From positions 65,429 through 129,428 of the forward strand of contig DATKGN010000006.1 of the NCBI GenBank assembly GCA_035510735.1: a stretch of DNA of 64,000 bases, read 5' to 3'. Shown here one piece after another: positions 8,018-34,209 of this stretch (position 1 is the stretch's first letter; each line of letters starts with the position of its first letter). This DNA comes from Patescibacteria group bacterium (lineage in GTDB: Bacteria > Patescibacteriota > Microgenomatia > UBA10105 > UBA927). Position numbers and translations under genes: made by a program. The notes under the pieces are model-generated. The model had not been told where the DNA came from. It did no database searches and worked only from the letters and a program-made list of their open reading frames with translations.

Positions 8018-8030
8018 AATTTTATTCTTG

Positions 8031-8123
8031 TCATTGCGAGTCGAGTCTTCGAGACGCGGCAATCTCTTCAATTAATTCAGATTGCTTCGCCCCGTCAGCT
8101 GACGGGGTCTCGCAATGACATTA
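8031..8123. repeat. 11-bp perfect long-range inverted repeat (gtcattgcgag / ctcgcaatgac) enclosing an 18-bp palindrome (ccccgtcagctgacgggg) and the motif tcgagtcttcgagacg
   Basis: Read directly from the sequence, in the murT-gatD intergenic region. Confidence 0.5.
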
Positions 8124-8128
8124 TTGTA

Positions 8129-16372: not shown

Positions 16373-16460
16373 AGGAGCATTGTACCAATTTTCACGACGC
16401 ACGGAAACCAATCAACTGTTTGATATGGATTTAAGAGGATATTTGATACAATAAGGGCAC

Positions 16461-19194: not shown

Positions 19195-19250
19195 TTATTG
19201 TATCACGGCTTGAATGATGACGCTCCATTTCGTACACTGCAAGCGGACAT

Positions 19251-20369: not shown

Positions 20370-21997
20370 TGGCCGTGGAAGAGTAGAATCGTGTGTCCGA
20401 CTATTTCGAAAATATTTTTCTTTTGATATTGAGGTTTCAGATAATATCCACAGTAATACCAATTAGACAAATTGATCGCAGTTAACGTACTTCCGGTATT
20501 ACCGGAAAAATCTATTTTGTGAAATGCACAGATCTCCTCAAATTTATAGCTCCCGTACGGAGTGATGCTCGTTAACCCGTATGGCGCGGCATCATCTCTT
20601 CCGAAATATGAAAAATATAGTACCGCAGGACGAATGCCGTTCACGTACGTGGTTAACGATTCAAGCGACTGCCCCCAATCAATATTTGAATCAATAAATT
20701 GTAGCGAACTTTCTTTACTGCGTCCCGCCAACTCATTCGTATAGGAAAGATAATATGGATGAAACAATAACGTACCGGCCATGTACCAGATGCATAATAA
20801 GAATACAAACGACATGATGACGACATGTTTAAAACGAACAATTGTCGTAGCGGCGATAATAATAATGAAGGGATACATAGGCAACACATATCGAACAAGC
20901 GGCTGCATTTTCGAGAGTGATGAAACGATTACTATTGATATGATGGGAATCAAGAATAACCATTCATCACTATCAGAAGCGGTTTTAGGTATGAAGGCAG
21001 CGAGAGTGCCAGCAATAAATAAAATCAGAAGCGGTAATGGCATCTTATAGATAACATTGACGACCATAAAGTACCATCGGGATGTCGTATAAAAATTTCC
21101 CAGGAAAAAATATGAGGCCGGTCGGGTCGTACGAATTGCGGTATTCTTCAGGACCGCAATATAATTCCCCAGAGGAACAGGCGTATGCCGTAGAAAATTT
21201 AGTGAAGATGCAAGTAAAAAATTATGCTGCCTGAACGCAATCTGTGAAAGCGTCGTTGAAACTCTCCCCATGGCATTACCCGGTGCAACAATTACATCGG
21301 TCTTAAAAAAATACGTGGACCACATTGCAAGTAAAAAGACGATAACAGATAACGCGATTGAAACCTTATTGCGCAAAATCCATTGCAAATGTTTTATTCT
21401 AACAATGCTTACGAATGCAAACACTGCACTCACCGCATAGAACGGTACTGTCGTTATTTTTGAAGCAGCCATGAGACCGACAAATAATCCGTGAAGGATA
21501 AAATTTGTGACAGTTGGTTTTTTTAGCATCGTGAATAGCGATGTATATACTAAAAAGAAAAAGAGTGTAGCCCCCATATCGAGCGTCACATAATGACTGT
21601 TGCCAAGAATAGTTGGTTCAAACACATAGAGAAATAGCGCTAATAGTGCAACATCACTGCCGAAAAACGTAGAAGAAGTACAGAATATCAGAACACCCAA
21701 CGCAACTCCCATCCCGATAATTACCATTCTTGCCGGTAGTATTTGAATATTGGGCACTCGGGAATGAAAAATATCCGTGCCACCGATTAATAGCGGTATG
21801 ACAGCAAGCTCCCGGATAAGCGGCGGATTATTTGTATCAATAAGAAACTCATGTTTTAGCCATGCATTTTTTCCTTCCTGCACATGAACTATCTCATCAT
21901 ACGTTAACGACTCATGAAGAGCACTCGAGACAGACAAAACGGAAAAGAGAATAAGAAGAAGGGCAGCCCCAAACAATGCAAATCGTTTTGATATCAT
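20366..21997 (-). CDS. GT39 / ArnT-like (protein-O-mannosyltransferase-like) membrane glycosyltransferase
   Basis: 543 aa multi-TM protein with a PMT/ArnT-like N-terminal region. Confidence 0.6.
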   Translation of the reverse strand: MISKRFALFGAALLLILFSVLSVSSALHESLTYDEIVHVQEGKNAWLKHEFLIDTNNPPLIRELAVIPLLIGGTDIFHSRVPNIQILPARMVIIGMGVALGVLIFCTSSTFFGSDVALLALFLYVFEPTILGNSHYVTLDMGATLFFFLVYTSLFTMLKKPTVTNFILHGLFVGLMAASKITTVPFYAVSAVFAFVSIVRIKHLQWILRNKVSIALSVIVFLLAMWSTYFFKTDVIVAPGNAMGRVSTTLSQIAFRQHNFLLASSLNFLRHTPVPLGNYIAVLKNTAIRTTRPASYFFLGNFYTTSRWYFMVVNVIYKMPLPLLILFIAGTLAAFIPKTASDSDEWLFLIPIISIVIVSSLSKMQPLVRYVLPMYPFIIIIAATTIVRFKHVVIMSFVFLLCIWYMAGTLLFHPYYLSYTNELAGRSKESSLQFIDSNIDWGQSLESLTTYVNGIRPAVLYFSYFGRDDAAPYGLTSITPYGSYKFEEICAFHKIDFSGNTGSTLTAINLSNWYYCGYYLKPQYQKKNIFEIVGHTILLFHGH

Positions 21998-23139
21998 GAT
22001 AAGAGATGATGATATAAATCGCTCAATTTCCTGGCACCAATTGCTATATCATGAACCGTTTCCGCGCGTCTTCTTGCTTTTTTCCCGTAGGCCAACCGTT
22101 TTTTCGGATTTAGGATAAACGATTTTACCGCCTTGGTAATTGCGGAGACGTCACCCGGCTTTACTAAAATTCCAGCATCACCGATATTCTCTGGAATCCC
22201 CCCCGTTCTCGTTGTAACAATAGGTAATCCTGCAGCCTGTGCTTCAAGAAGCGCTGTGCAATATTGTTCATCGTACGTCGGTGTCGGCTTACTTGGCGCA
22301 ATAAAAATATCCGCGCGGTCATATTCATTAGGCATCTTTTCATAAGAAACAGCTGAATGAAATGTGATATCAGACAATCCCAGTCGTCGTTCCTCATCCA
22401 ACATTGATTGTTTTTCCGATCCGCCCCCGACAAACTTCAATCGGAGCGAATAATGTGACAACTCCGAGTCTTTCCGAAGAAGCGCCGCAGCGGCCAGAAT
22501 ATCAAAAACGCCTTTGTACTTTTCTAACCTGCCGCTAAACAAAATCGTAAATTCTCGTTTTTTATTCGAAAATCGCCGGCTGCTAGCCTCTCGTGTCGGG
22601 TTGAACCGGTGCGTATCTATAAAATGAGAAATAACGGTTATCTTATCGGGATCGGTACCCTCCTCAATGAGAACTGCTTTTGTCTTTTGCGTGAGAGCAA
22701 TAATATAATCAAGCTCCTGTCGCGCTCGCTTTTTGAACCCCTTTCTCCCCCGAATGCCTTCATTATTAAAGGGTATATTTTCCAACACGGTCGCAATGAC
22801 TTTCCTTACATATCCTTTCCTCTTCGCGTTTAGACATTGCTGGGTATAATGAAAATACGTTTCGGCAGTGTGAACGATATCAAATCCTTTGAGTTTTTCT
22901 TCAAGACCGTATAGGTAATGCACATCAATAAACATTCTGTTTAACAGCGGCATTTTATACGGGAAATCCGGAATATCCATAGGGCTCGGCAACTTCACAA
23001 CGGGGAATGCAAATGAATCGTGGTAGCTCGTCAGTGATCCGAAACCCGTCAAATCGAACTGTTTGACCAGCGGTTCGTAAAACTGCATTTCGTATTTATT
23101 AAGGAATTTACCTCGGACTATCGCAATTTTCGATTTCAT
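21994..23139 (-). CDS. Family 4 (GT-B) glycosyltransferase
   Basis: EAQAAGLPIVTTRTGGIPE matches the GT4 EX7E region. Start trimmed to MKSKIAIV. Confidence 0.8.
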   Translation of the reverse strand: MKSKIAIVRGKFLNKYEMQFYEPLVKQFDLTGFGSLTSYHDSFAFPVVKLPSPMDIPDFPYKMPLLNRMFIDVHYLYGLEEKLKGFDIVHTAETYFHYTQQCLNAKRKGYVRKVIATVLENIPFNNEGIRGRKGFKKRARQELDYIIALTQKTKAVLIEEGTDPDKITVISHFIDTHRFNPTREASSRRFSNKKREFTILFSGRLEKYKGVFDILAAAALLRKDSELSHYSLRLKFVGGGSEKQSMLDEERRLGLSDITFHSAVSYEKMPNEYDRADIFIAPSKPTPTYDEQYCTALLEAQAAGLPIVTTRTGGIPENIGDAGILVKPGDVSAITKAVKSFILNPKKRLAYGKKARRRAETVHDIAIGARKLSDLYHHLLS

Positions 23140-24725
23140 AATGATGGAATAATTGTCGGCGTATCTGTTCTCCAAACCTCAACATTTCCGCCTCCGAAAT
23201 ACAATTCGTATCCGTACTGCGTAAACGATTCGTTCTTGTCTGCAATTATATACGAAGGACGCATAACCGTTAACTCACGAAAATTATTTTTACCGGTTAT
23301 CGGATCGGCAAACCGTGGCGTGTAGGTAGGTGTCCAGCCGTAATAATAGTTAAGAATCGGGATGGATTCACGAAGTAAGAACGGCTGCATACAACAGACA
23401 AAATTAGCTACGAAGAAATTTGAACCATCCCGCCGCCTTAACTCATGGGCAATAGCGGATTCATTGCTGCGAAACGGCTCAAATGTACCTTTAATTGTGT
23501 TAAAGTTCATGACAAAAAGCCAAACGACGCTCCCGATTAAACATAGCACTAAATAGCGCTTCACAACGTTACTTCCTTTGACAATCATATAGTCCGCGCA
23601 AAATGTGATGACCATAACAACAGGAATCATGAGTGGCACAACGACCCGTTGAGGTACGCGGAACATACGAACCAATGTGATGTTGTGAAACAGCCAGTAA
23701 AACGGCGAATACGGATACCGAAGCGATATATAACAGGCCGCCGTAATAACAAATATGACAGCAAGGCGTACCGGATATGATTTCCAAACTTTTTGAATAT
23801 AAAGCAATGGTATTACTGCAAACGGAGTAATAAACGCATAATATTCATACCAATTGTAATGAAATCCGATAATCCGTTGAAGCGTCGGCCTGTCGTAGAA
23901 CTCCACCTGCCACGGGATTAAGAACGATAATGGTAACAGCCATGCGTGAATCGAGCCGGCATACGGATCTATCGTTTGCAAACGATTGATATGAGGTATC
24001 ACGTCGCGGATAAACGGTAGGAGTTTTGATAATGCAAACGCGACAAAAAAACCATAGATATACAATATCTCCTGAATGATTTCTTTAAGTTTACTGTTCT
24101 TGGTAATAATGCGATAAGCTGCCGAAACGACGTAAAATAAACTGAAAAACCAAAGACTGTAAAAATCCGCGGTGAGTAAAATACACGCGTAAATAATCCC
24201 CACTGTTGCAGCCTCAACGGGTTTCATCCGTTTACGGAAAAAATAGAGAAAAACGACCGGTCCGATCGCATATCCTGCAAACTTTTCCACATGACCGGCT
24301 GCTATCATTGCAGCGAGAGCTCCGGAAAATTCATACAGAATTGCACCCCACGCAATCGCCCACGGACGTAGTTTGAACGATGACAGAAAATACCACATCG
24401 AAAGACCGGACCCGATAATCGTGACGGCGATAAGCACCCGGAGTCCGTTATCAGGACCAAACAGGAAAAATAACGGCATATAAAACGGGCTCAGCATAAA
24501 TGACGAATCTCCGAGGGCTGGTATCCCCAAGCCAATGTTCGGATTCCAGCTGAGATACGGAAACGGATGCGTATACGCCCGAAGCGCAAATGTTGCCATC
24601 GGCAGGATGACGTTATAGTCCGTATCCAGACGGAAAGATAGGTGTCTCGTCACAACCCAGAGTGGAATAATAAGGAGTATCGCAACAAATAATACCGGCA
24701 AATAACTTCGATTCGTTAAACGCAT
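23136..24725 (-). CDS. Large polytopic membrane protein (YfhO/GT-C-like)
   Basis: 529 aa with many TM helices, inside the island. Confidence 0.55.
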   Translation of the reverse strand: MRLTNRSYLPVLFVAILLIIPLWVVTRHLSFRLDTDYNVILPMATFALRAYTHPFPYLSWNPNIGLGIPALGDSSFMLSPFYMPLFFLFGPDNGLRVLIAVTIIGSGLSMWYFLSSFKLRPWAIAWGAILYEFSGALAAMIAAGHVEKFAGYAIGPVVFLYFFRKRMKPVEAATVGIIYACILLTADFYSLWFFSLFYVVSAAYRIITKNSKLKEIIQEILYIYGFFVAFALSKLLPFIRDVIPHINRLQTIDPYAGSIHAWLLPLSFLIPWQVEFYDRPTLQRIIGFHYNWYEYYAFITPFAVIPLLYIQKVWKSYPVRLAVIFVITAACYISLRYPYSPFYWLFHNITLVRMFRVPQRVVVPLMIPVVMVITFCADYMIVKGSNVVKRYLVLCLIGSVVWLFVMNFNTIKGTFEPFRSNESAIAHELRRRDGSNFFVANFVCCMQPFLLRESIPILNYYYGWTPTYTPRFADPITGKNNFRELTVMRPSYIIADKNESFTQYGYELYFGGGNVEVWRTDTPTIIPSL

Positions 24726-24785
24726 TATTAATGGTAATAAGCAGTTTACCTCTTGGGCGGTTACGAAACCGTATTATATAGCACC

Positions 24786-25669
24786 TCAATACCCTTGTGT
24801 TATTTGCTTTTTAGAAAGAAGTACCGGAATGGTTTTGTTGGTAACCGGAAAATGATTGCCGCAATTGCTGCATTTCACATTGGTTCCGTTTACGTAAATC
24901 AACGGATTTGCAAAACACAACGGACAACGAAGTATCGTTAGTAATCGCGCAATAATCCGGCTCGGGGCGACATTGATTTGAACATTCCAGAGCAACAATC
25001 TAAGTGTCTTTATACATTTCCGCTTCACCCGCCGCATCATCCAATAGATATAGAATGTTGCGTCAGGAATAAAATCCGGCTTCGCTTGTTGCAGTAATTT
25101 CCATGCGCTTCGGTCAAGGTTTTCAACCCATGTTTTTGAAGCTTCATGGGTATCCACACATAAATTAACACTTCCGTTCCATTCATATCGCACGTACATT
25201 TCATGTTCATATTTCTCGAAAAATCGCCGGAACCAAATCGTCTGGGCAATCAACCTATGGAAAAAACCCTTAAATTGTTCGCCTTCCGTTTTTCTGCGAA
25301 GCATGAGGACTCCGGATTCAACCGAACAATACCAATGGTGAAAATTCCAACCAAAAACCCGCTCCGATAATGCGGAGGGAACTTCTATATATCCGCTCTT
25401 GGCCACCCTGACGACCTCCGCGATAAATCTCTTCGGATCATCCATATGTTCCAGAATATGCGAACAAATAACATAATCGAATGCCTTATCGTCAAACGGT
25501 AAATGGTAACCATCGGCAACTACCATCGACCGGTCAATAACGATCGAAAATTCACCAGCGCGTTCCCCATCGTCGCTGAGATACCGGTCGCAAAGGATGT
25601 CCGACCGGGGATTCGGATTATTACCGCTTCCGATTTCCAAAACAATATCTGTCGGTTTAATGTTCATAG
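24786..25669 (-). CDS. SAM-dependent methyltransferase with C-terminal Cys4 zinc ribbon
   Basis: Motif I VLEIGSGNNP and a C-terminal CPLC...CSNCG ribbon. Start trimmed to MNIKPTD to remove the overlap with the GT4 gene. Confidence 0.7.
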
Positions 25670-26745
25670 TACGCAAGAAGGTTATATATTTGGGAGGCAA
25701 ATGTCTTCCATCGAAACTTTCTTGACCGTTCAATAGCGCGGACCCTAATTTTTTTTTGCAAAGCATCATCGGAAAGAAACTGATAAAGCGTATTTGCAAT
25801 GTCCACTTCTTGCGCATTTCTTGACACAAGACCTCCGCCACCAACTATTTCTTTCATTGCTCCCCGGTCAACAGAAATAACCGGAGTCCCGCACGCCATA
25901 CTCTCAACTGCCGGTAGACAAAACCCTTCATGCAATGGTGTTGTAAACAAAGCGGTCGCGCCGCGATAGTATTTGGGCAATTCACTATCTGAGATAAGGC
26001 CTATTTTTTTAACCCGACGTTCAAGTCCTAGTTCCTGAATCGTTTTATCGATGCGCGAATCGGGCCAATAATCGCCGCCGACAAGTAAAAAGTCGTATGG
26101 CTTTTTTACCCGTTTCATGGCAAGCGAAAATGCACGTATGGCCAGTGACAAATCTTTCGCCTTATTCAGACTCCCGACGAAAAGTACATACGGATTTGTT
26201 GATTGAAATGCCACTCCGATTGGAGAAAATAGCGAGTCAACCCCAGGGTACGCCACCGTAACTTTCGATTGGTCAACCGTATATTCCCGAAGTATATCTT
26301 TTTTTGAGGTGTTGGAAATAGTTACTATGGAATCCGCACGTTCAACGAGCGACTGCGTTTGTGTTTTCAGTTTTTGTGCTGCGTTTCCATACGCATCCGG
26401 GTTAAATAAAAACCCGAGATCATAAATGAACCCTATATTGTGCGACGTAGAGCGGGGGATGGCCTGAGAGACCCCCAAAAAGACATCGACGGGATGGATC
26501 GTTAATTCAATGGGTAAACGGACGGTAAACCATCCTCTTGCAGGAGTTATCACAACATTCGTCATTCGATCGCCCAATTCGCTTATCACTCCCCGATCAA
26601 TCGGACTGAAACTGTACAACCGGTAGGTATTTTTCATATCCATTCGGGCGAGTTCTCGGAGTAAATGAAGTGTGACCCTATACACCCCAACTTTTAGCCG
26701 GTCATCGGTGATCGATAGTGCTCCCGCATCAACACCGATAATCAT
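25657..26745 (-). CDS. Family 4 (GT-B) glycosyltransferase
   Basis: GT-B fold signature. 362 aa. Confidence 0.8.
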   Translation of the reverse strand: MIIGVDAGALSITDDRLKVGVYRVTLHLLRELARMDMKNTYRLYSFSPIDRGVISELGDRMTNVVITPARGWFTVRLPIELTIHPVDVFLGVSQAIPRSTSHNIGFIYDLGFLFNPDAYGNAAQKLKTQTQSLVERADSIVTISNTSKKDILREYTVDQSKVTVAYPGVDSLFSPIGVAFQSTNPYVLFVGSLNKAKDLSLAIRAFSLAMKRVKKPYDFLLVGGDYWPDSRIDKTIQELGLERRVKKIGLISDSELPKYYRGATALFTTPLHEGFCLPAVESMACGTPVISVDRGAMKEIVGGGGLVSRNAQEVDIANTLYQFLSDDALQKKIRVRAIERSRKFRWKTFASQIYNLLAYYEH

Positions 26746-27623
26746 AATTGCACCTCTCTGTATTTCCGAAACCCGTCTTTAATACCTAAAAATGGCGTTA
26801 TCATAGACCGTACACTAACCTCCCGTCCGAAACCGAACATGCATCGGAGTATCCAGTTCATTCTGGTAACTAAAAAGACAGGAAAATATAGTTTATTACA
26901 GTGTTTTAAGAAAAAATAGGTTTCGTTACTTAAAAAGTGATAGTACCATTGCATTCTGCCTTCTGTTTTGCGGCCGCCACCGCTGACTTCTCTCATGTGA
27001 GTCACAACGGCCGTCGGATCATATACCACCCGATACCCCAGTTTTTTGATTCTCAGGGCTAAATCCGATTCTTCCCGTATAGCCGCCGTGAATCTTTCAT
27101 CAAAACCCCCGGCTCTTAAAAAAATACGTTTAGGAAATGCCATATTACATCCAACCGGAGTATCAACCTCTTGTCGAATAGTTGATGAAAACCCATCTGA
27201 AAATGTTGACCATGGCGAAATCCGACCCGTATGCGTATTCTTTGGATCAATTTCTTGTCCATCGGTAATAATTCTGCCCGCGACACAACCGATTGTTGGG
27301 TCAGAAAAATTTTTCACGAGGTTATTAATGCAATCTCTATGGACGACGATGTCATCGTCAAAGAAGATATAAAACTTGCCCTTCGCTTTTTTTACTCCTA
27401 GGTTTTTTGCCCGGGCGGTATTATGTATATTTGAAAATATATAGAATAACGTAATTTTCAATTTCTTTGCGTCACGTAAATACTCATTTCCATTTTTATC
27501 GCCTTGTTCAACAACGATTATTTCCATACGTGCCGTAATTTGCGAACTAATACTATCAAGTAGTCTAAGCAGGCTTTTTTTCCTGTGAAGCGTTGGAATA
27601 ATAATGGAAATATTAATAGACAT
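26742..27623 (-). CDS. Family 2 glycosyltransferase
   Basis: N-terminal GT-A (SIIIPT), DD motif (FFDDD). Confidence 0.8.
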   Translation of the reverse strand: MSINISIIIPTLHRKKSLLRLLDSISSQITARMEIIVVEQGDKNGNEYLRDAKKLKITLFYIFSNIHNTARAKNLGVKKAKGKFYIFFDDDIVVHRDCINNLVKNFSDPTIGCVAGRIITDGQEIDPKNTHTGRISPWSTFSDGFSSTIRQEVDTPVGCNMAFPKRIFLRAGGFDERFTAAIREESDLALRIKKLGYRVVYDPTAVVTHMREVSGGGRKTEGRMQWYYHFLSNETYFFLKHCNKLYFPVFLVTRMNWILRCMFGFGREVSVRSMITPFLGIKDGFRKYREVQL

Positions 27624-27634
27624 AGGATATTGTT

Positions 27635-28444
27635 TTACGCATCTTTGGCGCTTTGAGCATTGCGTAAGACCGTCTCATTCAGCTTCTCCCGGAGGCTTCT
27701 GGGTGCAAATGAATGACTTTTCCTAAACACACCGTTTTCTTTAACGAAAACCATGTCAACTGAAGCAAGCGCGTAATCGATCGGTCGATTGTAACCACCG
27801 AATATGTCATACGCAACAAACCCGTATTTATTTAAAAAGTTTACAATATCAAAAAATTGGGGTGCATTTTTATAAAAATGGAAGAAATGGACTTCGAGAA
27901 TAATTACCTCTGTCTGCTTAAGTACATTCTTGGCCCCCTCAAGCACCAAAAGCTCGGCGCCTTGCACATCAATTTTAATAAGATAGGGTCCATCCATATG
28001 CTTTTTACGGCATTGTGCATCGATTGTGATGATGGGAATGTTTCTTGCGATTCCGTCAACATAACTTCCGTCAGTTTCTTTAAATACTGAGGACCCAAGC
28101 AAATCAGGGTGAACATTAATTTCCATAGTTCCTGATCGGGGGCCAGCCGCCGCTATAATATATTCCGCGCCGTACATAGCAGATATTTGCTTCAAATCGC
28201 TTTCAAATTCTCGTAGCGGCTCTATCAAAAAATGTCTTGCTTTGGGAAACGTCTTATACAACTCGTATGTGCCGGTTGCCACGCCCACATCTATAACTGT
28301 TTTTGGTCTGAATCCCAATCTCGAAATATTGGCAAGAACTTCGGAAAGCGTTGTTCTCCTGTCCTCTCCGTGTTTCCTCGTCCTTCGAACTTCTACGCCA
28401 AAACCTTTAAATATTTTCTTCACCGTTTTTTTGAATAATTTCAT
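27635..28444 (-). CDS. FkbM-family methyltransferase
   Basis: FkbM-like Rossmann motif VIDVGVATGTYE. 269 aa. Confidence 0.7.
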   Translation of the reverse strand: MKLFKKTVKKIFKGFGVEVRRTRKHGEDRRTTLSEVLANISRLGFRPKTVIDVGVATGTYELYKTFPKARHFLIEPLREFESDLKQISAMYGAEYIIAAAGPRSGTMEINVHPDLLGSSVFKETDGSYVDGIARNIPIITIDAQCRKKHMDGPYLIKIDVQGAELLVLEGAKNVLKQTEVIILEVHFFHFYKNAPQFFDIVNFLNKYGFVAYDIFGGYNRPIDYALASVDMVFVKENGVFRKSHSFAPRSLREKLNETVLRNAQSAKDA

Positions 28445-28454
28445 ACGTTTCCTA

Positions 28455-29720
28455 TCAAATCTTCGTATATAAATGTATTTCTCCCTTAAAATTACGAATA
28501 ACTATTACGATATAAAGCAGCGAGGTACATAGTTCCGTTATGACCGTCGTATAACTCGTTCCGATATATCCGTACTTCGGAATTACGTAGAGGTTCAGTA
28601 GAAAATTAACAACCAATGAAATAATAAGTGGCCGGATGAGATATTTCGTTTTTCCGAAAGAAAGAATGACATTAAAAAATATATTGTTAAGGAACAAAAG
28701 AGGCACTGCAAATAGTAATATTTTAAACGGCGCCATACTGGAAAAAAACTTACTTCCGCCGAGTATGCGCATTATAAGAAAAGAAAACGTATTACCTATA
28801 AAAATAATGCCGGCTGAAAGCACAACCAATACTATGACTGTTTTCGTCAATAGGTCCCGGTAATTATGAGTTTGACCTTTTCCATGATATTTCGATAGCA
28901 ATGGAAATACATTTGCCATATATAAACCCCAAAGCAAGAGACAGTTATCAATAATTTTATATGCTAATCCATAGATGCCGACATCCTGAGGCGACCGCAT
29001 GACAGAAAGCATCATCGTATCAACTTTAAAATAAAGGATAGACAGAAATGCAGTTATTCCGACAGGCAAACTAATCTTGATTATTTTTGAAACAAGTGCC
29101 CTATCAAACGCAAATTTGAATACCAATTGGTCTTTCACCAGAAGAAGTGTTGGCACGATCCCCACCAGATTACCAATAAGTACCGAACCGACGATCCAAT
29201 AAAAACTCTGTTTTGTAGCAACCACAATTGCTATCGCGATGACCGTAGCGACTTTCGTGGCGATATCAAGGTATGCCACAAAATCGAGTTTTAACTGCGC
29301 TTGTAATATCGATGTCCCGTATGAAGATAGATTACTTACAGCAACGGCAACGACACCGATGAGGATGGCAATCTTCAACATCATCGGATACGGAAAAAAC
29401 AACAATCCAATCGTTGATAATACAATGGAAACTCCGATGAGAATAAGTTTAAGATTCAGAAGTGTCGCATACGCCCGTTGCGATTGTTCCTCGTTCTGTG
29501 CAAATTCCCGTACGATTGTTTGATTTAATCCAACATCGGACAGGACGGTGAAAAATGATATGTAGGTAAATACCAACGTGTACCATCCGTATTTATCGGT
29601 ATTGAGATAGCGTGTCAGAAGGCCCACACTTATTAACGATAAAAGTACAGAAAATCCCTTCGAACCGAACTGAGTGAAGGTATTATAGATAATTTTTCGA
29701 TAGGGTAACCCGCTCGCCAT
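28455..29720 (-). CDS. MOP-superfamily polysaccharide flippase (Wzx-like)
   Basis: 421 aa with about 12 TM helices, in Wzx-like position at the end of the island. Confidence 0.8.
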   Translation of the reverse strand: MASGLPYRKIIYNTFTQFGSKGFSVLLSLISVGLLTRYLNTDKYGWYTLVFTYISFFTVLSDVGLNQTIVREFAQNEEQSQRAYATLLNLKLILIGVSIVLSTIGLLFFPYPMMLKIAILIGVVAVAVSNLSSYGTSILQAQLKLDFVAYLDIATKVATVIAIAIVVATKQSFYWIVGSVLIGNLVGIVPTLLLVKDQLVFKFAFDRALVSKIIKISLPVGITAFLSILYFKVDTMMLSVMRSPQDVGIYGLAYKIIDNCLLLWGLYMANVFPLLSKYHGKGQTHNYRDLLTKTVIVLVVLSAGIIFIGNTFSFLIMRILGGSKFFSSMAPFKILLFAVPLLFLNNIFFNVILSFGKTKYLIRPLIISLVVNFLLNLYVIPKYGYIGTSYTTVITELCTSLLYIVIVIRNFKGEIHLYTKI

Positions 29721-29968
29721 GTACGGCTAAGGGTAACATGGAAATTCATATTTGACAATCAAAATGGTTTACCCTGATGCAAATCTATTTTCCTCTGGGT
29801 CTAACATTATAATTAACAATATTCTAGTCTAATTATTCAAACGAATTGTTGATAATATTCAAATTGGAATAATCTCCTGAAGTATATTCGTAATTGTTAG
29901 ATATAACTCCCTAATTTTGTTATTTTCAATACTGAAATTAATTAATAATATTACTATTATTTAAAGTA

Positions 29969-32326
29969 GTGAAGAAAATTCTCCCATTTATTACTCTTAT
30001 ACTGTCATATTTAATAACTGTTTCTCCAGTTTTTGCTATTTCAACATTTACTAGATACCCTCAAAATCCAATTCTCCAATCTATCGGATTAAACCCCGTA
30101 ATCATAAATAAAGACGGTCAATATAAAATGTGGTACAACGTAAATTATGGTCAAGGCTGGAGAATAAACTACGCTTATTCAGAAAATGGAATTAACAATT
30201 GGACAATACCATATCAACAAATTATACCCGTTGGGTCCCCAGATGGGTTTGAAAAAGACATGGCGGATTTTTATGTACTATTTAACACTTCACTCAACGA
30301 ATATCAAATGTGGTATTCCGCTATTAGTCAAAACTGGCAAAGCGGACCAGATCGTTTTAGGTTGGGTTATGCAACATCGATTGACGGAATAAATTGGACT
30401 AAAAGTGCTGATTGGGCTTTAAAAGGAACTTTAGGTTCATGGGATAGCGGAGGGATGGCGAGAGGTGTTTCAGTTGTTTTTAAAGATAATAAATACCAAA
30501 TGTGGTATTCAGCCACAGATGACGGCTTTAATTGGAAAATAGGCTATGCAACCTCGTCTGATGGTGCAAGCTGGACAAAACAAAATACACTTAATCCAAT
30601 AATAATCCCAAGTGAACCTTGGGAACTAAACGGCGTTAGCTATCCAAACGTAATTTACAATAGCGGATTATATGAAATGTTCTATGCAGCAAGTCCAACT
30701 GAAATGCCTTCCCAACTTATTTATGCCACATCTATTGATGGTATAAATTGGAATAAGTCTTACAATAATCCAATTGTTAAAGGAATAGATACCTATGACA
30801 ATACTTTTATAAGTACACCATTCGCAATGCGATTAGAAAATGGCACTACTCTATTATGGTACACCGGAAACGGATATTATATTTTGCTCGATACCGACGG
30901 TCCGATACCCACCGCCATCCCCACTCCCACCCCTACTCCCACTCCCACCTCTCCCCCCAATCCCACACCATCCCCATCACCCACACCGACTCCAACCCCC
31001 ACGCCAACGCCGACGCCAATCCCACAAACGACAAAACAAGTTATTGTCATCCCGGGAATGACAGCGGGTTGGAATGCAAAAGATATAGTCTTTTGTACAG
31101 CCACACCGAATGCATCATGGTCTCTCATTGATCCGGCTAATGACGTTTATAACCCTATTCTTCAACGATTAAAAAACGACGGCTGGCAGGCAACATTATT
31201 TCCGTACGACTGGCGAAAGCGCGTTTCAGATAACGCTAGTCTTTTGAAATCGTTCATCGATTCTCATGTAAAACCCGGAGAAAAAGTCGACGTTGTTGCC
31301 CACAGTATGGGCGGGCTCGTCGCAAGAAGTTATTTGGAACAGGAAACAACAAATAATAAGATTGACAAACTCATAACCGTGGGGACGCCACACAAGGGAT
31401 CTGTAGATTCATATCCCACATGGTCAGCTGGAGTACCCCCAGAAGACGGCGGTCCGCTATGGAAATTCTATGTATTAGCGATTGAAAAGTTGTGCTGGAC
31501 AAAAACACGAAATGACCGGATTGCCATCCAAACATATTTTCCTTCAATTCAGGATTTACTCCCGACATTTGATTATTTAATAGATAATCAAACCAACAAA
31601 TCAAAACCAGTACAATTAATGACAGCCAAAAACCAGTGGTTATTAAATTCGACGTTCGCTCCTCCATATTATGGCACCACAATGGGTACACTTTCAGGCA
31701 CCGGTCAAAATACGGAGCAGACATTCAGGGTTGAACCTCCAAGCCAAACAGACAAGCAATTAGGCAATTGGCAGGACGGCAAACCGGTTAAAATCATAAC
31801 AACAACAAATGGTGACAACAGGGTTCTCCTAGCAAGCAGTACGCTACCTCAAGCCAATAACTTGGGACCAATTGACGAGGATCACACAAATCTTATATCG
31901 TCCCGCGATAGCATAAACATAATTATGGACTTTCTAAGAGGCCCCAAAATGGCGCAGGCAATGATGCTTACGACTCCGCTGACCCAAACCACTCCGAAGT
32001 CGCACAAACAAGAGTCTACATCTCCTACTTCAGGACTCTTTATAGTTGGCTATCCGGCAACACTTTGGGTTATCGATCCTCACGGCAAATTTTACAAAGA
32101 CACGGACGGTTTGGTTTCGATCATGGACCCCAAAGCCGGCCTTTATAAACTTATTTTCTGGCCGAAAGAAAAGGAAACTAAATTAATTGTCGCCCAGATG
32201 CTTGCTGATAACAAAAATTATTGGAAGGAATATGATTTCACGACACGCTTCCCACAATTCCATGCGCCACAAATTCATTTTTTGATGTTCGACAACAAGC
32301 ATCCGAAAGAAGATATCCTCCATTAA
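29969..32326 (+). CDS. Secreted multidomain protein: signal peptide, beta-propeller (glycoside-hydrolase-like repeats), Pro/Thr linker, alpha/beta-hydrolase lipase/esterase domain
   Basis: Signal peptide MKKILPFITLILSYLITVSPVFA. Four repeats of the form (Q/Y)MWY(S/N)...IGYATS.DG.NWTK. A PTPTPT linker. A GxSxG nucleophile elbow VVAHSMGGLVARSYL of the PGAP1/LCAT-like type. Confidence 0.8.
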   Translation: MKKILPFITLILSYLITVSPVFAISTFTRYPQNPILQSIGLNPVIINKDGQYKMWYNVNYGQGWRINYAYSENGINNWTIPYQQIIPVGSPDGFEKDMADFYVLFNTSLNEYQMWYSAISQNWQSGPDRFRLGYATSIDGINWTKSADWALKGTLGSWDSGGMARGVSVVFKDNKYQMWYSATDDGFNWKIGYATSSDGASWTKQNTLNPIIIPSEPWELNGVSYPNVIYNSGLYEMFYAASPTEMPSQLIYATSIDGINWNKSYNNPIVKGIDTYDNTFISTPFAMRLENGTTLLWYTGNGYYILLDTDGPIPTAIPTPTPTPTPTSPPNPTPSPSPTPTPTPTPTPTPIPQTTKQVIVIPGMTAGWNAKDIVFCTATPNASWSLIDPANDVYNPILQRLKNDGWQATLFPYDWRKRVSDNASLLKSFIDSHVKPGEKVDVVAHSMGGLVARSYLEQETTNNKIDKLITVGTPHKGSVDSYPTWSAGVPPEDGGPLWKFYVLAIEKLCWTKTRNDRIAIQTYFPSIQDLLPTFDYLIDNQTNKSKPVQLMTAKNQWLLNSTFAPPYYGTTMGTLSGTGQNTEQTFRVEPPSQTDKQLGNWQDGKPVKIITTTNGDNRVLLASSTLPQANNLGPIDEDHTNLISSRDSINIIMDFLRGPKMAQAMMLTTPLTQTTPKSHKQESTSPTSGLFIVGYPATLWVIDPHGKFYKDTDGLVSIMDPKAGLYKLIFWPKEKETKLIVAQMLADNKNYWKEYDFTTRFPQFHAPQIHFLMFDNKHPKEDILH
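30898..31030 (+). repeat. Low-complexity CCN/ACN codon repeat encoding the (PT)n linker
   Basis: cccactcccacccctactcccactccc..., read directly. Confidence 0.8.
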
Positions 32327-32331: not shown

Positions 32332-32682
32332 CTATTCTCCTGGATTTCCTATAATAGTTAACATAAATTGAGGAATATTATTTGTTATAGAAAATATAGT
32401 AACAGACAAAAACGATAATACTAGTGATAGTGGACCCATAAAAATAAAAACCCAATAGTTTAACTTACGTTGAAGTATAAAACAAAATATTACATATAGT
32501 AGCAACAGTAAAACATAATAAACAGCAGAAATTTTTGCATACATGTAAGAATATACTGCAATCAAAATGACCAATGAAACTAAAATATTGTCTGATTCGA
32601 AATAATTAGGATAATGGAAAATAAACCATGGAGTTTTTATTAATAAAAATATTATGATCGGCCAGACAAACAGTTTCCACAT
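32332..32682 (-). CDS. Small hypothetical membrane protein (116 aa, 3-4 TM)
   Basis: Hydrophobic ORF; no other support. Confidence 0.4.
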   Translation of the reverse strand: MWKLFVWPIIIFLLIKTPWFIFHYPNYFESDNILVSLVILIAVYSYMYAKISAVYYVLLLLLYVIFCFILQRKLNYWVFIFMGPLSLVLSFLSVTIFSITNNIPQFMLTIIGNPGE

Positions 32683-32818: not shown

Positions 32819-33778
32819 TTAAAACATAAATGCCGCTACCTCTTGTTCGTTTAATGGCCCCTGCATAGCATCAGGACTATCTGTTCCGGGGACCACATCA
32901 TAGGCATCTAACTTTATATGTATAGGTACGGCATACCGAAGTTCATCTGTTGCCGATGAATAATGCACAAATACGGGTTTTGGTTCCAAACATAATGTCG
33001 TGACCTCAACATGTCCGTCATCTCGTTTCGCTACTTTCCTCATTACCAATGAGTTTACATCGTTTGATACATCTCTATCATATAAAACAAGATAAGAAAC
33101 CGATGGTAATACAAGCTCAGTATGATAATGACTTTCCGTTACCTGAAAATGACCGTAGCTGTTGTAAAATCCCCTATCGCTACCGCGAAATACGAAATTT
33201 GGATGTAAGATTAAGTAGCTTTCTTTCCCTGGGTTTTCTTCTACAAACGGAATTTCATTTCGCAAACCTACACACGCGTTGTTAGGATATTTTTTTCGCA
33301 ACTTCTTTTCCTCGGACGAATCGTTATAACGTGCCTTCAGATACTTAATGGTTCCCGTGTCAACAAATATTGCGCGTAATGCTGACATCCGCAGCCTTTT
33401 GGCATCAGGATGGTCAAATTTCGAATACCGGTTTTCTCTATCAACTTTATACACAGAAGGGCTTGCAATATGCCAAAAAATCTGGTCTATGAGAATCGAC
33501 TGTGTGACGGGAATAATTTCCGCGTTCGTAAGCATTTCCCTGCCACTCACTAAACCGAGATTATCGCGCACAAATGCGTCAGCGTTTTCAAATATCTCAA
33601 GCCATTGGTTTCCTTTTTCCAGATATTCACCAATATCGCGTTTGTCTAAGTGTCGTGGCAAAAATCCGGACGTAACCATTCGGAATATCTCTTTCGTGAG
33701 CCTCCCCCGATCAAATCCGGCAGATAATGAGTCTATAAACTCTCCTTGTTCTTTTCCAGACGGCAATCCAGTATACAT
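32819..33778 (-). CDS. Hypothetical protein (319 aa), no recognisable motifs
   Basis: Long non-repetitive ORF bounded exactly by tRNA-Val and the tRNA 3'-fragment copy. Confidence 0.55.
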   Translation of the reverse strand: MYTGLPSGKEQGEFIDSLSAGFDRGRLTKEIFRMVTSGFLPRHLDKRDIGEYLEKGNQWLEIFENADAFVRDNLGLVSGREMLTNAEIIPVTQSILIDQIFWHIASPSVYKVDRENRYSKFDHPDAKRLRMSALRAIFVDTGTIKYLKARYNDSSEEKKLRKKYPNNACVGLRNEIPFVEENPGKESYLILHPNFVFRGSDRGFYNSYGHFQVTESHYHTELVLPSVSYLVLYDRDVSNDVNSLVMRKVAKRDDGHVEVTTLCLEPKPVFVHYSSATDELRYAVPIHIKLDAYDVVPGTDSPDAMQGPLNEQEVAAFMF

Positions 33779-33897: not shown

Positions 33898-33970
33898 TGG
33901 GCGGTATAGGAATCGGACCTATGACCTTTTCAATGTCAATGAAACGCTCTACCAGCTGAGCTAACCGCCC
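33898..33970 (-). tRNA. tRNA-Val (anticodon GAC), CCA not encoded
   Basis: Reverse complement folds as GGGCGGT-TA-GCTCAGCTGGTAGAGC-G-TTTCA-TTGACAT-TGAAA-AGGTC-ATAGGTCCGATTCCTAT-ACCGCCC-A. Confidence 0.9.
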
Positions 33971-33973
33971 TAT
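33958..33973. repeat. 16-bp direct repeat copy 1 (gagctaaccgccctat), spanning the tRNA-Val 5' end and the GIY-YIG stop codon
   Basis: Identical 16-mer at 34288-34303. Confidence 0.7.
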
Positions 33974-34209
33974 ATTCTATTTTTCAAAAATCCTCTACCA
34001 AAACCCGTCTTAAAGTATTTTTCCCTAAGCTGAGCCTTCTTTTTAGTCACACATGCTTCGTAATATACAAGCTCTAAAGGTTTTCTATGTTTGGTAGCTT
34101 CAACATCTCCAGAATTATGTTCTTTTAATCGTCTCTTCAAGTCCGATGTTGAACCAACGTATAATCTCTTATTCTTAGTACTCTTTAAAACATACGTATA
34201 ATAAAACAT
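33970..34209 (-). CDS. Small GIY-YIG nuclease-family protein (UPF0213/YhbQ-like, 79 aa)
   Basis: YTYVLKS...RLYVGSTSDLKRRLKEHN matches the GIY-YIG core. The TAG stop overlaps G1 of tRNA-Val. Confidence 0.75.
   Translation of the reverse strand: MFYYTYVLKSTKNKRLYVGSTSDLKRRLKEHNSGDVEATKHRKPLELVYYEACVTKKKAQLREKYFKTGFGRGFLKNRI

What the first reader, a model, noticed from the sequence alone, without database searches (positions are those of the whole stretch)
29969..32326. Secreted 785-aa fusion of a glycoside-hydrolase-like beta-propeller, a (PT)n linker and a PGAP1/LCAT-like lipase domain
The ORF has a cleavable signal peptide. It then has four or more repeats of the form ..Y(Q/E)MWYS...IGYATS.DG.NW(T/N)K, typical of five-bladed propeller glycosidases (GH43/32/130-like). 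Next is a ~45-residue Pro/Thr linker encoded by a CCN/ACN repeat. The C-terminal alpha/beta-hydrolase domain has the nucleophile elbow VVAHSMGGLVARSY (the GHSMGG lipase/PGAP1-like class). Such a carbohydrate-active plus lipolytic fusion, on an extracellular stalk, directly follows the envelope-glycosylation island and is divergently transcribed from it. It could act on a host or neighbour envelope or on the cell's own glycolipids. Fusions of these two activities are unusual.
Basis: partly seen in the sequence, partly recalled or inferred. Interest (0 to 1): 0.6.

Follow-up and report, generated by a model that had tools for sequence, protein, structure and literature searches.

The report
Secreted lectin-headed LCAT-like lipase
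This is a secreted, modular enzyme of an uncultured Microgenomates (CPR) bacterium whose working part is almost certainly an LCAT/phospholipase-A-type lipase, while its glycosidase-looking propeller has probably lost catalysis and acts as a sugar-binding head; this makes it a candidate tool for taking lipids from other cells.

Summary
It has a signal peptide, a five-bladed GH130-like propeller, a 44-residue Pro/Thr linker, and an alpha/beta hydrolase with the elbow AHSMGG.

The hydrolase belongs to the LCAT/LPLA2 superfamily:
- Pfam LCAT scores 54 bits against a cutoff of 21.
- hhalign to LPLA2 gives 98% probability.
- The YDWR motif is present.
- Ser446, Asp616 and His639 are invariant in 70 relatives.

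The propeller has the GH130 fold (TM 0.74-0.76) but not the GH130 catalytic signature. The proton-donor Asp is kept in only 29 of 62 orthologues and is Asn in most of the nearest relatives. The phosphate-binding and +1-subsite residues are absent.

In related genomes the same chromosomal slot carries the same lipase behind other N-terminal heads: a PQQ propeller, an uncharacterised domain that may be ConA-like, or a short head of unknown fold. In one genome it carries the same propeller in front of a C39-like peptidase. The propeller is therefore best read as an exchangeable binding module.

The fusion is not rare. It is a conserved, fast-evolving orthologue in Gottesmanbacteria/Microgenomates, always at the edge of a Wzx/Wzy glycan island. 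The substrate and the biological role (lipid scavenging or own-envelope remodelling) are inferred, not shown.

The parts
29721..29968 (.). 248-bp AT-rich divergent intergenic region between the Wzx gene and the target gene
   Evidence: The promoter scan found no more sites than shuffled sequence, so no promoter is assigned.
29969..32326 (+). Whole ORF, 785 aa plus stop codon, GTG start
   Evidence: The identical protein is found on three further metagenome contigs.
29969..30037 (+). Sec signal peptide, aa 1-23, predicted cleavage VFA|IS
   Evidence: Sequence features. Ala at -1 is the family consensus. No SignalP tool was available.
30038..30904 (+). Five-bladed GH130-like beta-propeller, aa 24-312. 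It is probably a non-catalytic glycan-binding head.
   Evidence: AF2 pLDDT 96. Foldseek TM 0.74-0.76 to GH130 entries 9FJ8, 9GPH and 7FIP. The GH130 proton-donor position (Asp100, 30266-30268) is not conserved in the family.
30905..31036 (+). Pro/Thr linker, aa 313-356 (19 Pro, 15 Thr, 3 Ser), encoded by CCN/ACN repeats
   Evidence: A PT linker appears in the consensus of both family alignments.
31037..31948 (+). LCAT/LPLA2-like alpha/beta hydrolase with a cap insertion of about 130 residues, aa 357-660. Key residues: Ser446 (31304-31306), Asp616 (31814-31816), His639 (31883-31885), YDWR 413-416, and invariant Cys376 and Cys509.
   Evidence: Pfam LCAT 1.9e-14, 54.1 bits against cutoff 21. AF2 pLDDT 94. 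Foldseek hits BlEst2, LPLA2 and LCAT. hhalign to LPLA2 gives 98% probability with Ser165 and Asp327 aligned. Invariance is shown.
31949..32029 (+). Poorly modelled interdomain linker, aa 661-687
   Evidence: Ten-residue pLDDT block means are 72, 50 and 69 over fragment residues 301-330; only 308-314 fall below 50.
32030..32323 (+). C-terminal beta-sandwich of about 8 strands, aa 688-785, function unknown
   Evidence: AF2 strands at fragment residues 335-420 with pLDDT above 90. No Pfam or PDB sequence match. The domain is conserved in most relatives of about 700-800 aa and is replaced in the 860-1010 aa class.
28455..29720 (-). Wzx-type flippase gene, divergent neighbour and last gene of the glycan island (17258-29720)
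   Evidence: Polysacc_synt 2e-28. Wzx-like sequence lies directly upstream, mostly within about 200 bp, in loci L004, L006, L007, L010, L013, L022, L023, L025 and L030; it is nearby but further away in L009, L011 and L028.
32332..32682 (-). Convergent 116-aa predicted membrane protein, function unknown. An ORF of similar size in the same position and orientation occurs in L004 and L005.
   Evidence: The alignment shows only 29% identity and there is no Pfam family. Whether it belongs to the system is uncertain.

Best explanation
The gene encodes a Sec-secreted modular exoenzyme built like a carbohydrate-binding-module/linker/catalytic-domain hydrolase.

**Catalytic part (aa 357-660).** This is a serine alpha/beta hydrolase of the LCAT/LPLA2 superfamily.
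- Ser446 in the AHSMGG elbow, activated by His639 and Asp616, attacks an acyl ester and forms an acyl-enzyme. By analogy with every characterised member of this superfamily, the substrate is most likely a glycerophospholipid or another membrane lipid.
- The acyl-enzyme is then resolved by water (phospholipase A or lipase activity, giving a fatty acid plus a lysolipid) or by an acceptor hydroxyl (transacylation).
- A cap of about 130 residues, probably pinned to the core by the invariant pair Cys376-Cys509, would form the lipid-binding surface.

**Propeller (aa 24-312).** It derives from GH130-type enzymes but has lost the conserved catalytic centre. It most likely acts as a glycan-binding head that holds the enzyme on a sugar-coated surface, either the target cell envelope or the producer's own surface polysaccharide.

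**Linker and C-terminal domain.**
- The Pro/Thr linker is a spacer and is possibly O-glycosylated.
- The C-terminal beta-sandwich is an accessory domain. It may be propeptide-like and inhibitory, or it may bind substrate, as reported for BlEst2 and EstA3.

**Shown versus inferred.**
- Shown: the architecture, the folds, family membership, invariance of the triad, loss of the GH130 signature, domain swapping, and synteny.
- Inferred: the lipid substrate, the binding role of the propeller, the disulfide, glycosylation, and the biological role. The proposed role is harvesting fatty acids and lysolipids for a CPR bacterium, a group reported to lack complete lipid biosynthesis pathways.
For: **Hydrolase.**
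- Pfam LCAT scores 54.1 bits against a cutoff of 21. PGAP1 and Palm_thioest also score above their cutoffs.
- Profile hits reach LipA, BlEst2, LPLA2 and LCAT.
- Foldseek finds BlEst2 at 6e-14, LPLA2 at 4e-11 (TM 0.47/0.53) and LCAT at 7e-10.
- hhalign against the LPLA2 sequence, verified against PDB entry 4X90, gives 98% probability and E 1e-12. YDWR, Ser165/Ser446 and Asp327/Asp616 are in register.
- Ser446, Asp616, His639, Asp414-Trp415-Arg416, Cys376 and Cys509 are invariant in 70 sequences.
- The model's secondary structure puts Ser after beta5, Asp after beta7 and His after beta8, the canonical order.

**Propeller not catalytic.**
- The defining GH130 residues are listed in PMC7660257.
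- The proton donor is Asp in 29 of 62 sequences (Asn 12, Thr 6, Glu 5). The positions just before each inner strand all vary.
- The nearest subclade has D, D, N, N, N, N, T at that position.
- In the same alignment the lipase triad is invariant, which serves as an internal control.
- The blades are recognisably repeated, 25-37% identical.

**Exchangeable head.**
- The same syntenic slot holds the LCAT module behind a PQQ propeller (L087), behind an N-terminal domain with a weak match to the ConA-like DUF1080 family (P0118/L088; PF06439, E 3e-4, below cutoff), and behind a short uncharacterised head (P0104/L086).
- In L056 the same propeller precedes a Peptidase_C39_2 domain.
- The same propeller type is a module of large surface proteins that also carry fn3, PKD, LamG, beta-helix, Kelch and T9SS domains.

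**Context.**
- The position between the Wzx/Wzy glycan island and SPaseI-ParB-L27 is conserved in 15 or more species-level genomes with both flanks present.
- CPR bacteria are reported to lack complete lipid biosynthesis pathways and to be rich in lysolipids. Phospholipase A has been suggested as their source (PMC7242380; PMC8080830).
Against: - No activity data exist for any member of the family.
- The Pfam LCAT match covers only model positions 66-175 of 392. TM-scores to LPLA2 and LCAT are modest (about 0.5).
- The hhalign alignment of the His region is out of register, so His639 is assigned from invariance and topology only.
- The query itself retains Asp100 and Asn42, which are equivalent to the GH130 donor and a -1 subsite residue.
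- Acidic residues at positions 219 and 277 are well conserved, so a non-canonical glycosidase site cannot be excluded.
- One subgroup of the family keeps an HDP motif plus a His at position 240 and may be active.
- No model coordinates were available, so triad geometry and pocket conservation could not be measured.
- Whether this organism lacks lipid synthesis was not tested.
- Conserved synteny could simply reflect shared ancestry.
Confidence: 0.55

Rival explanations
1. This is a true bifunctional enzyme. The propeller would be an active glycosidase of the GH130/GH43 type and the C-terminal half an esterase. Together they would degrade an acylated glycan or glycolipid, in the way that GH-CE fusions act on plant or microbial polysaccharides.
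For: The propeller has the GH130 fold, and the family profile reaches E 7e-24 against a GH130 phosphorylase. The query retains Asp100 and Asn42 at the proton-donor and -1 subsite positions. A subgroup keeps an HDP motif plus His240. Glu219 and Asp277 are conserved as acidic residues in 82-95% of sequences.
Against: The donor Asp is present in only 47% of orthologues and is Asn or Thr in 5 of the 7 nearest relatives. There is no phosphate-binding Arg/His pair, no Arg59 or Asp304 equivalent, and no identifiable base. The query scores below the Pfam GH130 cutoff, 24.7 against 26. The head is swapped for unrelated domains at the same locus. The hydrolase resembles lipases and LCAT, not any carbohydrate-esterase family.
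Confidence: 0.15
2. This is an envelope-maturation enzyme for the cell's own glycoconjugate. The LCAT/PGAP1-like domain would add or remove acyl chains on a lipid-linked or surface glycan (a lipoglycan, glycolipid or glycoprotein) made by the adjacent Wzx/Wzy/PMT_2 island. The propeller would recognise that glycan.
For: The position at the island edge is kept in more than 20 genomes even though island gene content varies, and it is kept even when the head domain changes. In many of these genomes the gene is directly divergent from Wzx. PGAP1, a glycolipid deacylase family, scores above its cutoff. LCAT-family enzymes are transacylases (established knowledge). The gene evolves as fast as the island's Wzx gene, 35-54% against 40-61% identity.
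Against: The other flank is housekeeping (SPaseI, ParB, L27, L21, FtsW, IleRS), so the position may be inherited rather than functional. The PGAP1 match covers only about 50 residues around the nucleophile elbow. Known extracytoplasmic glycan O-acylation uses MBOAT/SGNH systems, not LCAT-like enzymes (established knowledge). There is no evidence of co-regulation.
Confidence: 0.2
3. This is an extracellular polyester or other non-lipid esterase, such as a PhaZ7-like native PHB depolymerase, a cutinase-like enzyme or a carbohydrate esterase, used for nutrient acquisition.
For: There is a weak NCBIfam hit to PhaZ7 (E 0.0011, 18 bits against cutoff 450). PhaZ7 and PhaZ structures appear among the Foldseek hits at ranks 41-42.
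Against: These matches are much weaker than those to LCAT, LPLA2, BlEst2 and family I lipases. The YDWR and GDGTV-type motifs are hallmarks of the LCAT family.
Confidence: 0.07

Closest known systems
LCAT / lysosomal phospholipase A2 (LPLA2, PLA2G15) superfamily, Pfam PF02450
   Same: Both have an alpha/beta hydrolase core and the YDWR motif before the nucleophile strand. Both have an (A/G)HSMG elbow and a GDGTV-type Asp motif; Ser165/Ser446 and Asp327/Asp616 are aligned. Both carry a large cap insertion between beta6 and beta7 and are secreted or extracytoplasmic. The Pfam score is above the gathering cutoff.
   Different: The eukaryotic N-terminal membrane-binding subdomain has no detectable counterpart: hhalign starts at LPLA2 residue 76. 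Identity is only 14-17% and TM about 0.5. Our protein also has a propeller head, a PT linker and a C-terminal beta-sandwich. Acyltransferase or PLA activity is untested.
Bacillus licheniformis lipase BlEst2 (PDB 6WPX/6WPY) and Thermoanaerobacter EstA3
   Same: BlEst2 is the best Foldseek hit (6e-14), and the alignment spans both the hydrolase and the C-terminal region. These are bacterial secreted lipases or esterases with a C-terminal beta-sandwich. That domain is reported as inhibitory or propeptide-like in BlEst2, according to the PDB deposition title cited in PMC10816834. In EstA3 it is needed for long-chain substrates.
   Different: Identity is 13%, TM is 0.36 and rmsd 15.7, indicating a different domain arrangement. 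BlEst2 has no N-terminal propeller and no PT linker. The C-terminal domain of our protein has no detectable sequence similarity to any PDB chain.
GH130 beta-mannoside phosphorylases and hydrolases (e.g. Teth514_1788, PDB 9FJ8; Teth514_1789, PDB 7FIP)
   Same: Both have the five-bladed propeller fold, TM 0.74-0.76. The family profile reaches E 7e-24. They share the per-blade motifs NP(I/V)L, W(E/D), P.V and YA.S.DG.
   Different: The proton-donor Asp is not conserved, the phosphate-binding Arg/His pair is missing, and the +1 subsite Arg59 and Asp304 are missing. Our domain is extracellular, whereas GH130 phosphorylases lack a signal peptide and are described as intracellular (PMC7660257). The blades are recognisably repeated. 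The domain is used as a module in many unrelated surface proteins.
Modular secreted hydrolases with a carbohydrate-binding module, a Pro/Thr linker and a catalytic domain (for example actinobacterial cellulases)
   Same: Both show the order signal peptide, binding module, PT-rich linker, catalytic domain. In both, binding modules are exchanged between orthologues.
   Different: Here the catalytic domain is a lipase-type hydrolase rather than a glycosidase. The 'CBM' is a degenerate glycosidase propeller whose binding is not demonstrated.

Membership tests
LCAT-like family (Pfam PF02450; LCAT, LPLA2, PDAT) | Profile score above the curated gathering threshold | tested here: met
   The score is 54.1 bits against a cutoff of 21, E 1.9e-14. 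Only model positions 66-175 of 392 are covered. hhalign of the family profile against LPLA2 gives 98% probability over 259 columns.
LCAT-like family (Pfam PF02450; LCAT, LPLA2, PDAT) | Ser nucleophile in a G/A-H-S-M-G elbow and catalytic Asp in a GDGTV-type motif | tested here: met
   Ser446 aligns with LPLA2 Ser165 and Asp616 with Asp327. Both are invariant in 70 of 70 sequences.
LCAT-like family (Pfam PF02450; LCAT, LPLA2, PDAT) | Catalytic His completing the triad | tested here: inconclusive
   His639 is invariant (70 of 70) and follows the last core strand in the model. However, hhalign placed it against a non-catalytic His of LPLA2, about 13 residues out of register. No coordinates were available to check geometry.
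LCAT-like family (Pfam PF02450; LCAT, LPLA2, PDAT) | YDWR motif preceding the nucleophile strand | tested here: met
   Tyr413-Asp414-Trp415-Arg416 aligns with PYDWRR of LPLA2. Asp, Trp and Arg are invariant.
LCAT-like family (Pfam PF02450; LCAT, LPLA2, PDAT) | N-terminal membrane-binding subdomain and lid as in LCAT and LPLA2 | tested here: not met
   The hhalign alignment begins at LPLA2 residue 76. The roughly 60-residue insertion after the first strand has no counterpart. A different cap of about 130 residues is present.
LCAT-like family (Pfam PF02450; LCAT, LPLA2, PDAT) | Phospholipid-dependent acyl hydrolase or transferase activity | not testable with these tools
   Requires enzyme assays.
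Glycoside hydrolase family 130 | Five-bladed beta-propeller fold | tested here: met
   Foldseek TM 0.74-0.76, rmsd 3.2-3.8 A, to 9FJ8, 9GPH and 7FIP.
Glycoside hydrolase family 130 | Pfam PF04041 score above the gathering threshold | tested here: not met
   The query scores 24.7 bits against a cutoff of 26. Some relatives do pass, for example P0057 at 48.3 and the L056 protein at 53.5.
Glycoside hydrolase family 130 | Catalytic proton-donor Asp (Asp104 of Uhgb_MP), conserved in more than 95% of members (PMC7660257) | tested here: not met
   The query has Asp100 at this position. Across the orthologous family it is Asp in only 29 of 62 sequences, and in the nearest subclade it reads D, D, N, N, N, N, T.
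Glycoside hydrolase family 130 | Phosphate-binding Arg168/His231 (phosphorylases) or a second carboxylate base (hydrolases) | tested here: not met
   The aligned positions are Lys/Asp/Asn-type and variable. Position 240 is Ala in the query and His in only 17 of 62 sequences. The position of the base could not be mapped with confidence.
Glycoside hydrolase family 130 | +1 subsite residues Arg59 and Asp304 (Asp304 conserved in more than 99%) | tested here: not met
   The Arg59 equivalent is position 57 (Glu, Ser, Thr or Asp). The Asp304 equivalent falls at positions 301-303 and is variable.
PGAP1-like (Pfam PF07819) | Profile score above the gathering threshold across the domain | tested here: inconclusive
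   The score is 37.3 bits against a cutoff of 24.3, but only residues 430-479 (the nucleophile elbow region) are covered, and the match overlaps the stronger LCAT hit.

The most novel reading that the evidence does not exclude
This conserved, fast-evolving secreted LCAT-like enzyme could be the lipid-harvesting device of Microgenomates/Gottesmanbacteria. Its exchangeable lectin-like head (GH130-derived propeller, PQQ propeller or another, possibly ConA-like, domain) would recognise the surface glycans of a particular host or neighbour. The phospholipase A/transacylase domain would then strip acyl chains from the target membrane and generate the lysolipids and fatty acids that CPR cells, reported to lack complete lipid biosynthesis pathways, build into their own membranes. 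A further possibility is that its PT linker is glycosylated by the adjacent PMT_2/Wzy_C island.
Probability: 0.2. Interest if true: 0.8.

Novelty: new variant of a known kind. Interest (0 to 1): 0.45.

Why it matters
CPR/Patescibacteria are reported to lack complete lipid biosynthesis pathways yet to have ordinary acyl-lipid membranes that are unusually rich in lysolipids. How they obtain these lipids is an open question (PMC7242380).

This finding offers a concrete, testable candidate. It is a secreted LCAT/phospholipase-A-type enzyme with three notable properties:
- It is conserved as a syntenic orthologue across Gottesmanbacteria/Microgenomates.
- It evolves as fast as surface-glycan genes.
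- It carries interchangeable heads that may bind sugars.

The case also shows a glycosidase-fold propeller that has probably been recycled as a binding module. That is a caution for automated CAZyme annotation: JGI labels relatives 'predicted GH43/DUF377 family glycosyl hydrolase'.

If the enzyme instead remodels the cell's own glycoconjugate, it would be a new type of extracytoplasmic acyl-modifying enzyme.

Tried and rejected
- **Locus search.** The search for related loci with the 62-sequence alignment failed because no stretch was conserved enough. It worked with a 10-sequence alignment.
- **Promoters and terminators.** The scan around the gene gave no more sites than shuffled sequence, so nothing was assigned.
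- **C-terminal beta-sandwich.**
  - The profile against PDB sequences gave only chance-level hits, best E 0.01 to a poxvirus A6 protein.
  - Pfam gave nothing.
- **Other N-terminal heads.**
  - The head of P0118 had no PDB sequence hit and only a sub-threshold PF06439 match, so 'ConA-like' is a tentative label for that one protein.
  - The heads of P0071 and P0104 gave no usable Pfam match.
- **116-aa downstream membrane protein.** It aligns only weakly with same-position ORFs in other loci, at 29% identity. It was not counted as a firm part of the system.
- **Paralogues.** None were found in the window.
- **Literature.** Searches for this family in Gottesmanbacteria or CPR found nothing specific.
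- **Rejected readings.**
  - A PhaZ7-type PHB depolymerase and a carbohydrate esterase, because the matches are far weaker than those to LCAT, LPLA2 and lipases.
  - A lipoprotein or sortase-anchored protein, because there is no lipobox Cys and no LPXTG motif.
- **Model coordinates.** They are not exposed by the tools, so triad distances and mapping of pocket conservation could not be computed.


Full report
**1. Observation**

The ORF at 29969..32326 (+ strand, GTG start, 785 aa) exists as described. The identical protein is encoded on three other metagenome contigs with the same neighbours.

- **Signal peptide.** The N-terminus MKKILPFITLILSYLITVSPVFA|IS has the regions of a Sec signal peptide and no lipobox Cys.
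- **Propeller repeats.** Residues 28-312 contain four clear repeats and one degenerate repeat of the type Y.MWY...IGYATS.DG..W.K. Blades 1-4 are 25-37% identical to each other.
- **Linker.** Residues 313-356 form a 44-residue linker with 19 Pro and 15 Thr. It is encoded by CCN/ACN repeats that Tandem Repeats Finder detects.
- **Nucleophile elbow.** VVAHSMGGLVARSY is present, with Ser446.
- **Gene arrangement.** The gene is divergent from a Wzx flippase gene. That gene closes an island (17258-29720) encoding a Wzy_C protein, GT2 and GT4 glycosyltransferases, two PMT_2-like GT-C enzymes and several methyltransferases.
After a poorly modelled linker there is a C-terminal beta-sandwich at aa 688-785.

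**2. The hydrolase half**

Sequence searches:
- Pfam gives LCAT (PF02450) at 1.9e-14, 54 bits against a cutoff of 21. PGAP1, Palm_thioest and DUF7379 also score above their cutoffs. All of these matches centre on the nucleophile region.
- A 62-sequence family profile hits Bacillus LipA, BlEst2, LPLA2 and LCAT in the PDB.

Structure:
- AlphaFold2 models residues 355-785 with mean pLDDT 94, using a 70-sequence alignment.
- The model shows a canonical alpha/beta core, a cap of about 130 residues inserted between beta6 and beta7, a poorly modelled linker, and a beta-sandwich of about 8 strands.
- Foldseek against the PDB ranks BlEst2 in its propeptide form first (6e-14). LPLA2 follows (4e-11, TM 0.47/0.53), then LCAT, and then family I lipases, PlaB and Tle4.

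Alignment to LPLA2:
- I then aligned it to the family's hydrolase profile with hhalign. The result was 98% probability, E 1e-12 and 259 aligned columns.
- YDWR, Ser165/Ser446 and Asp327/Asp616 are in register. The His region is about 13 residues out of register.

Conservation in 70 sequences:
- Pro362-Gly363, Cys376, Asp414-Trp415-Arg416, His445-Ser446, Gly448-Gly449, Cys509, Asp616 and His639 are all invariant.

The triad is therefore complete by conservation and topology. I file the domain as a member of the LCAT-like superfamily, with the caveat that the eukaryotic membrane-binding subdomain has no detectable counterpart. All characterised members of that superfamily use glycerophospholipids as acyl donors (established knowledge). 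The bacterial structural neighbours are lipases. A lipid ester is therefore the most likely substrate, by inference.

**3. The propeller half**

AlphaFold2 models residues 24-318 with pLDDT 96.
- Foldseek finds GH130 phosphorylases first (9FJ8, 9GPH and 7FIP; TM 0.74-0.76). GH137, GH32, GH43, GH117 and GH159 propellers follow.
- The family profile reaches E 7e-24 against 7FIP.

The fold and the distant homology are therefore real. The catalytic signature is not conserved.
- According to Li et al. (PMC7660257), GH130 enzymes are defined by several residues:
  - a proton-donor Asp, conserved in more than 95% of members;
  - an Arg/His phosphate site in the phosphorylases, or a second carboxylate in the hydrolases;
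  - the +1 subsite residues Arg59, Tyr103 (or Glu), Arg150 (or Lys) and Asp304.
- The HMMER alignment puts the GH130 'EDPR' motif on query residues 'ADFY', so the donor position is Asp100.
- Across 62 full-length orthologues this column is Asp 29, Asn 12, Thr 6, Glu 5 and other residues 10.
- The residues just before the inner strand of every blade are variable.
- No conserved basic residues exist at the phosphate-site or Arg59 positions.
- In the query's own subclade the donor position reads D, D, N, N, N, N, T.
- In the same alignment the lipase triad is invariant.
- The only invariant propeller residues belong to the structural SxDG..W hairpins.

Three caveats apply:
- The query itself keeps Asp100 and Asn42.
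- Glu219 and Asp277 are mostly acidic across the family.
- A separate subgroup keeps N(K/R)D(S/T)HDP plus a His at position 240.

Non-canonical or subgroup-specific catalysis therefore cannot be excluded.

**4. Family, distribution and domain shuffling**

- The protein has 475 word-indexed relatives. 105 of the best 120 carry both the propeller and the hydrolase.
- Source names are Candidatus Gottesmanbacteria, Microgenomates group, Shapirobacteria and Patescibacteria.
- A full scan of 1.84 billion cluster representatives with residues 355-785 finds 458 clusters at E<=1e-30 and 1716 at E<=1e-10. In these, the module sits behind N-terminal extensions of roughly 0, 140-260, 350 or 400-450 residues.
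- The shorter class has a signal peptide, a domain of about 110-200 residues, a PT linker and the lipase. One of these heads gives a sub-threshold, full-length match to the ConA-like DUF1080 family, E 3e-4. The others have no match.
- P0109 has a PQQ-type propeller and P0100 has Reg_prop repeats.
- Conversely, in L056 the same propeller precedes a Peptidase_C39_2 domain.
- Outside CPR, this propeller type is a module of surface proteins of up to about 2,500 residues, stop to stop. The ones scanned carry fn3, PKD, Ig-like, LamG, beta-helix and Kelch domains and a T9SS tail. It also occurs in archaeal stand-alone propellers with C-terminal membrane anchors.

This is the behaviour of an exchangeable binding or targeting module, not of an obligate second catalytic centre.

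**5. Genomic context**

- In at least 15 species-level genomes with both flanks present, and in more than 20 with one flank, the gene sits in the same position. On one side is a variable glycan island, often with Wzx directly divergent. On the other side is the block SPaseI-ParB-L27-UPF0020-L21-FtsW-IleRS.
- The head-swapped variants occupy the same slot, next to the island.
- The protein evolves fast, at 35-54% identity. ParB is 80-93% identical and SPaseI 60-73% in the closer genomes. The target's rate is similar to that of Wzx, 40-61%.
- One close relative MAG (ParB 98%) carries two versions. One is an 87%-identical N-terminal fragment next to the island. The other is only 38-57% identical and lies next to SPaseI. 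These are either two paralogues or a strain mixture.
- The conserved edge-of-island position allows a functional link to the surface glycan, through anchoring, glycosylation of the PT linker, or acyl modification. It could equally be inherited gene order.

**6. Mechanism and rivals**

Best explanation (confidence 0.55):
- The protein is a secreted modular LCAT-type serine lipase/phospholipase A, possibly a transacylase.
- It is directed by a degenerate GH130-derived, probably glycan-binding, propeller on a PT stalk.
- It carries an accessory C-terminal beta-sandwich, comparable to BlEst2 and EstA3.

Rivals:
- Own-envelope acyl-remodelling enzyme: 0.2.
- True bifunctional glycosidase-esterase: 0.15.
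- Polyester or carbohydrate esterase: 0.07.

The proposed biological role is harvesting acyl chains and lysolipids from neighbouring cells. [quoted passage not shown] It also rests on a similar proposal for Vampirococcus (PMC8080830). It is an inference. The lipid-synthesis capacity of this organism was not examined.

**7. Novelty and verdict**

No paper on this family was found. Database names are 'hypothetical protein', 'alpha/beta fold hydrolase', or JGI's automatic 'GH43/DUF377 glycosyl hydrolase / pimeloyl-ACP methyl ester carboxylesterase'.

Each part belongs to a known kind. The new elements are the combination, its clade-wide conservation at a variable surface locus, and the apparent conversion of a glycosidase fold into a binding head. 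I therefore rate it a new variant of a known kind, of moderate interest (0.45).

Its bifunctional interpretation is only partly supported.

Noticed in passing
L056:5971-8112 (+): In another Microgenomates-type genome the same syntenic slot (glycan island on one side, SPaseI-ParB on the other) encodes the same GH130-like propeller fused to a Peptidase_C39_2-like domain instead of the LCAT-like lipase. There is no PT linker.
   Followed up: partly
L011:6001-6933 and L014:14-1993 (same MAG, CAYLQG01): The closest relative genome (ParB 98% identical) carries two versions of the gene. One is an 87%-identical N-terminal fragment whose contig breaks in the PT linker. The other is only 38-57% identical and lies next to SPaseI. 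This indicates tandem paralogues, a strain mixture, or allelic replacement at a hypervariable locus.
   Followed up: partly
L034-L085 (e.g. L043:5308-10977, L072:5479-9453, L062:5944-8325, L063, L066): The same repeat-type GH130-like propeller is a module of secreted proteins of up to about 2,500 aa in many bacterial and archaeal phyla. Partner domains include fn3, PKD, LamG, beta-helix, Kelch and a T9SS tail. It also occurs in archaeal stand-alone propellers with a C-terminal membrane anchor. This may be an unrecognised family of non-enzymatic surface propellers.
   Followed up: partly
window 17258-29720 (- strand, except 19251-20369 +): A Wzx/Wzy-type surface-glycan island. It encodes a Wzy_C (O-antigen ligase / PglL-like) protein, a GT2, a 372-aa weak PMT_2 hit, a PMT_2 protein, a GT4, a 529-aa ORF with no family, a class I methyltransferase, a GT4, a GT2, an FkbM methyltransferase and Wzx. 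The combination of Wzy_C and PMT_2 could indicate protein O-glycosylation, and the PT linker next door would be a plausible acceptor.
   Followed up: no
window 32332-32682 (-), 32819-33778 (-), 33970-34209 (-): Between the target gene and the SPaseI gene lie a 116-aa predicted membrane protein, a 319-aa ORF with no family match, and a 79-aa stand-alone GIY-YIG nuclease-domain protein. This stretch is not conserved in the close relative L014.
   Followed up: partly
window 7265-9424 (-): A MurT-like ligase (8129-9424) lies next to a GatD-like CobB/CobQ amidotransferase (7265-8071). This is the pair that amidates peptidoglycan iso-glutamate in Gram-positive bacteria.
   Followed up: no
window 14855-16411 (-) and 11565-13382 (-): An archaeal-type PEP carboxylase (PEPcase_2, E 7e-129) and a PolX-family polymerase with a PHP domain. 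Both are somewhat unexpected in a small CPR genome.
   Followed up: no
window 4006-6279 (-): A GAF-ANTAR RNA-binding antiterminator-type regulator (5566-6279) lies directly upstream of glutamine synthetase (4006-5352). This suggests ANTAR-mediated control of nitrogen assimilation.
   Followed up: no
window 1-64000: GC skew is negative in all but one 2-kb window (cumulative -2.4), and nearly all long ORFs are on the - strand. This is consistent with a single replichore with strong strand bias.
   Followed up: no
L007-L009, L011, L014, L016, L017, L020, L021, L023, L027-L029 (record titles): Many GTDB representative MAGs titled 'uncultured Gammaproteobacteria bacterium' carry this Gottesmanbacteria-type gene and synteny. 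The titles look like placeholder or incorrect taxonomy.
   Followed up: no
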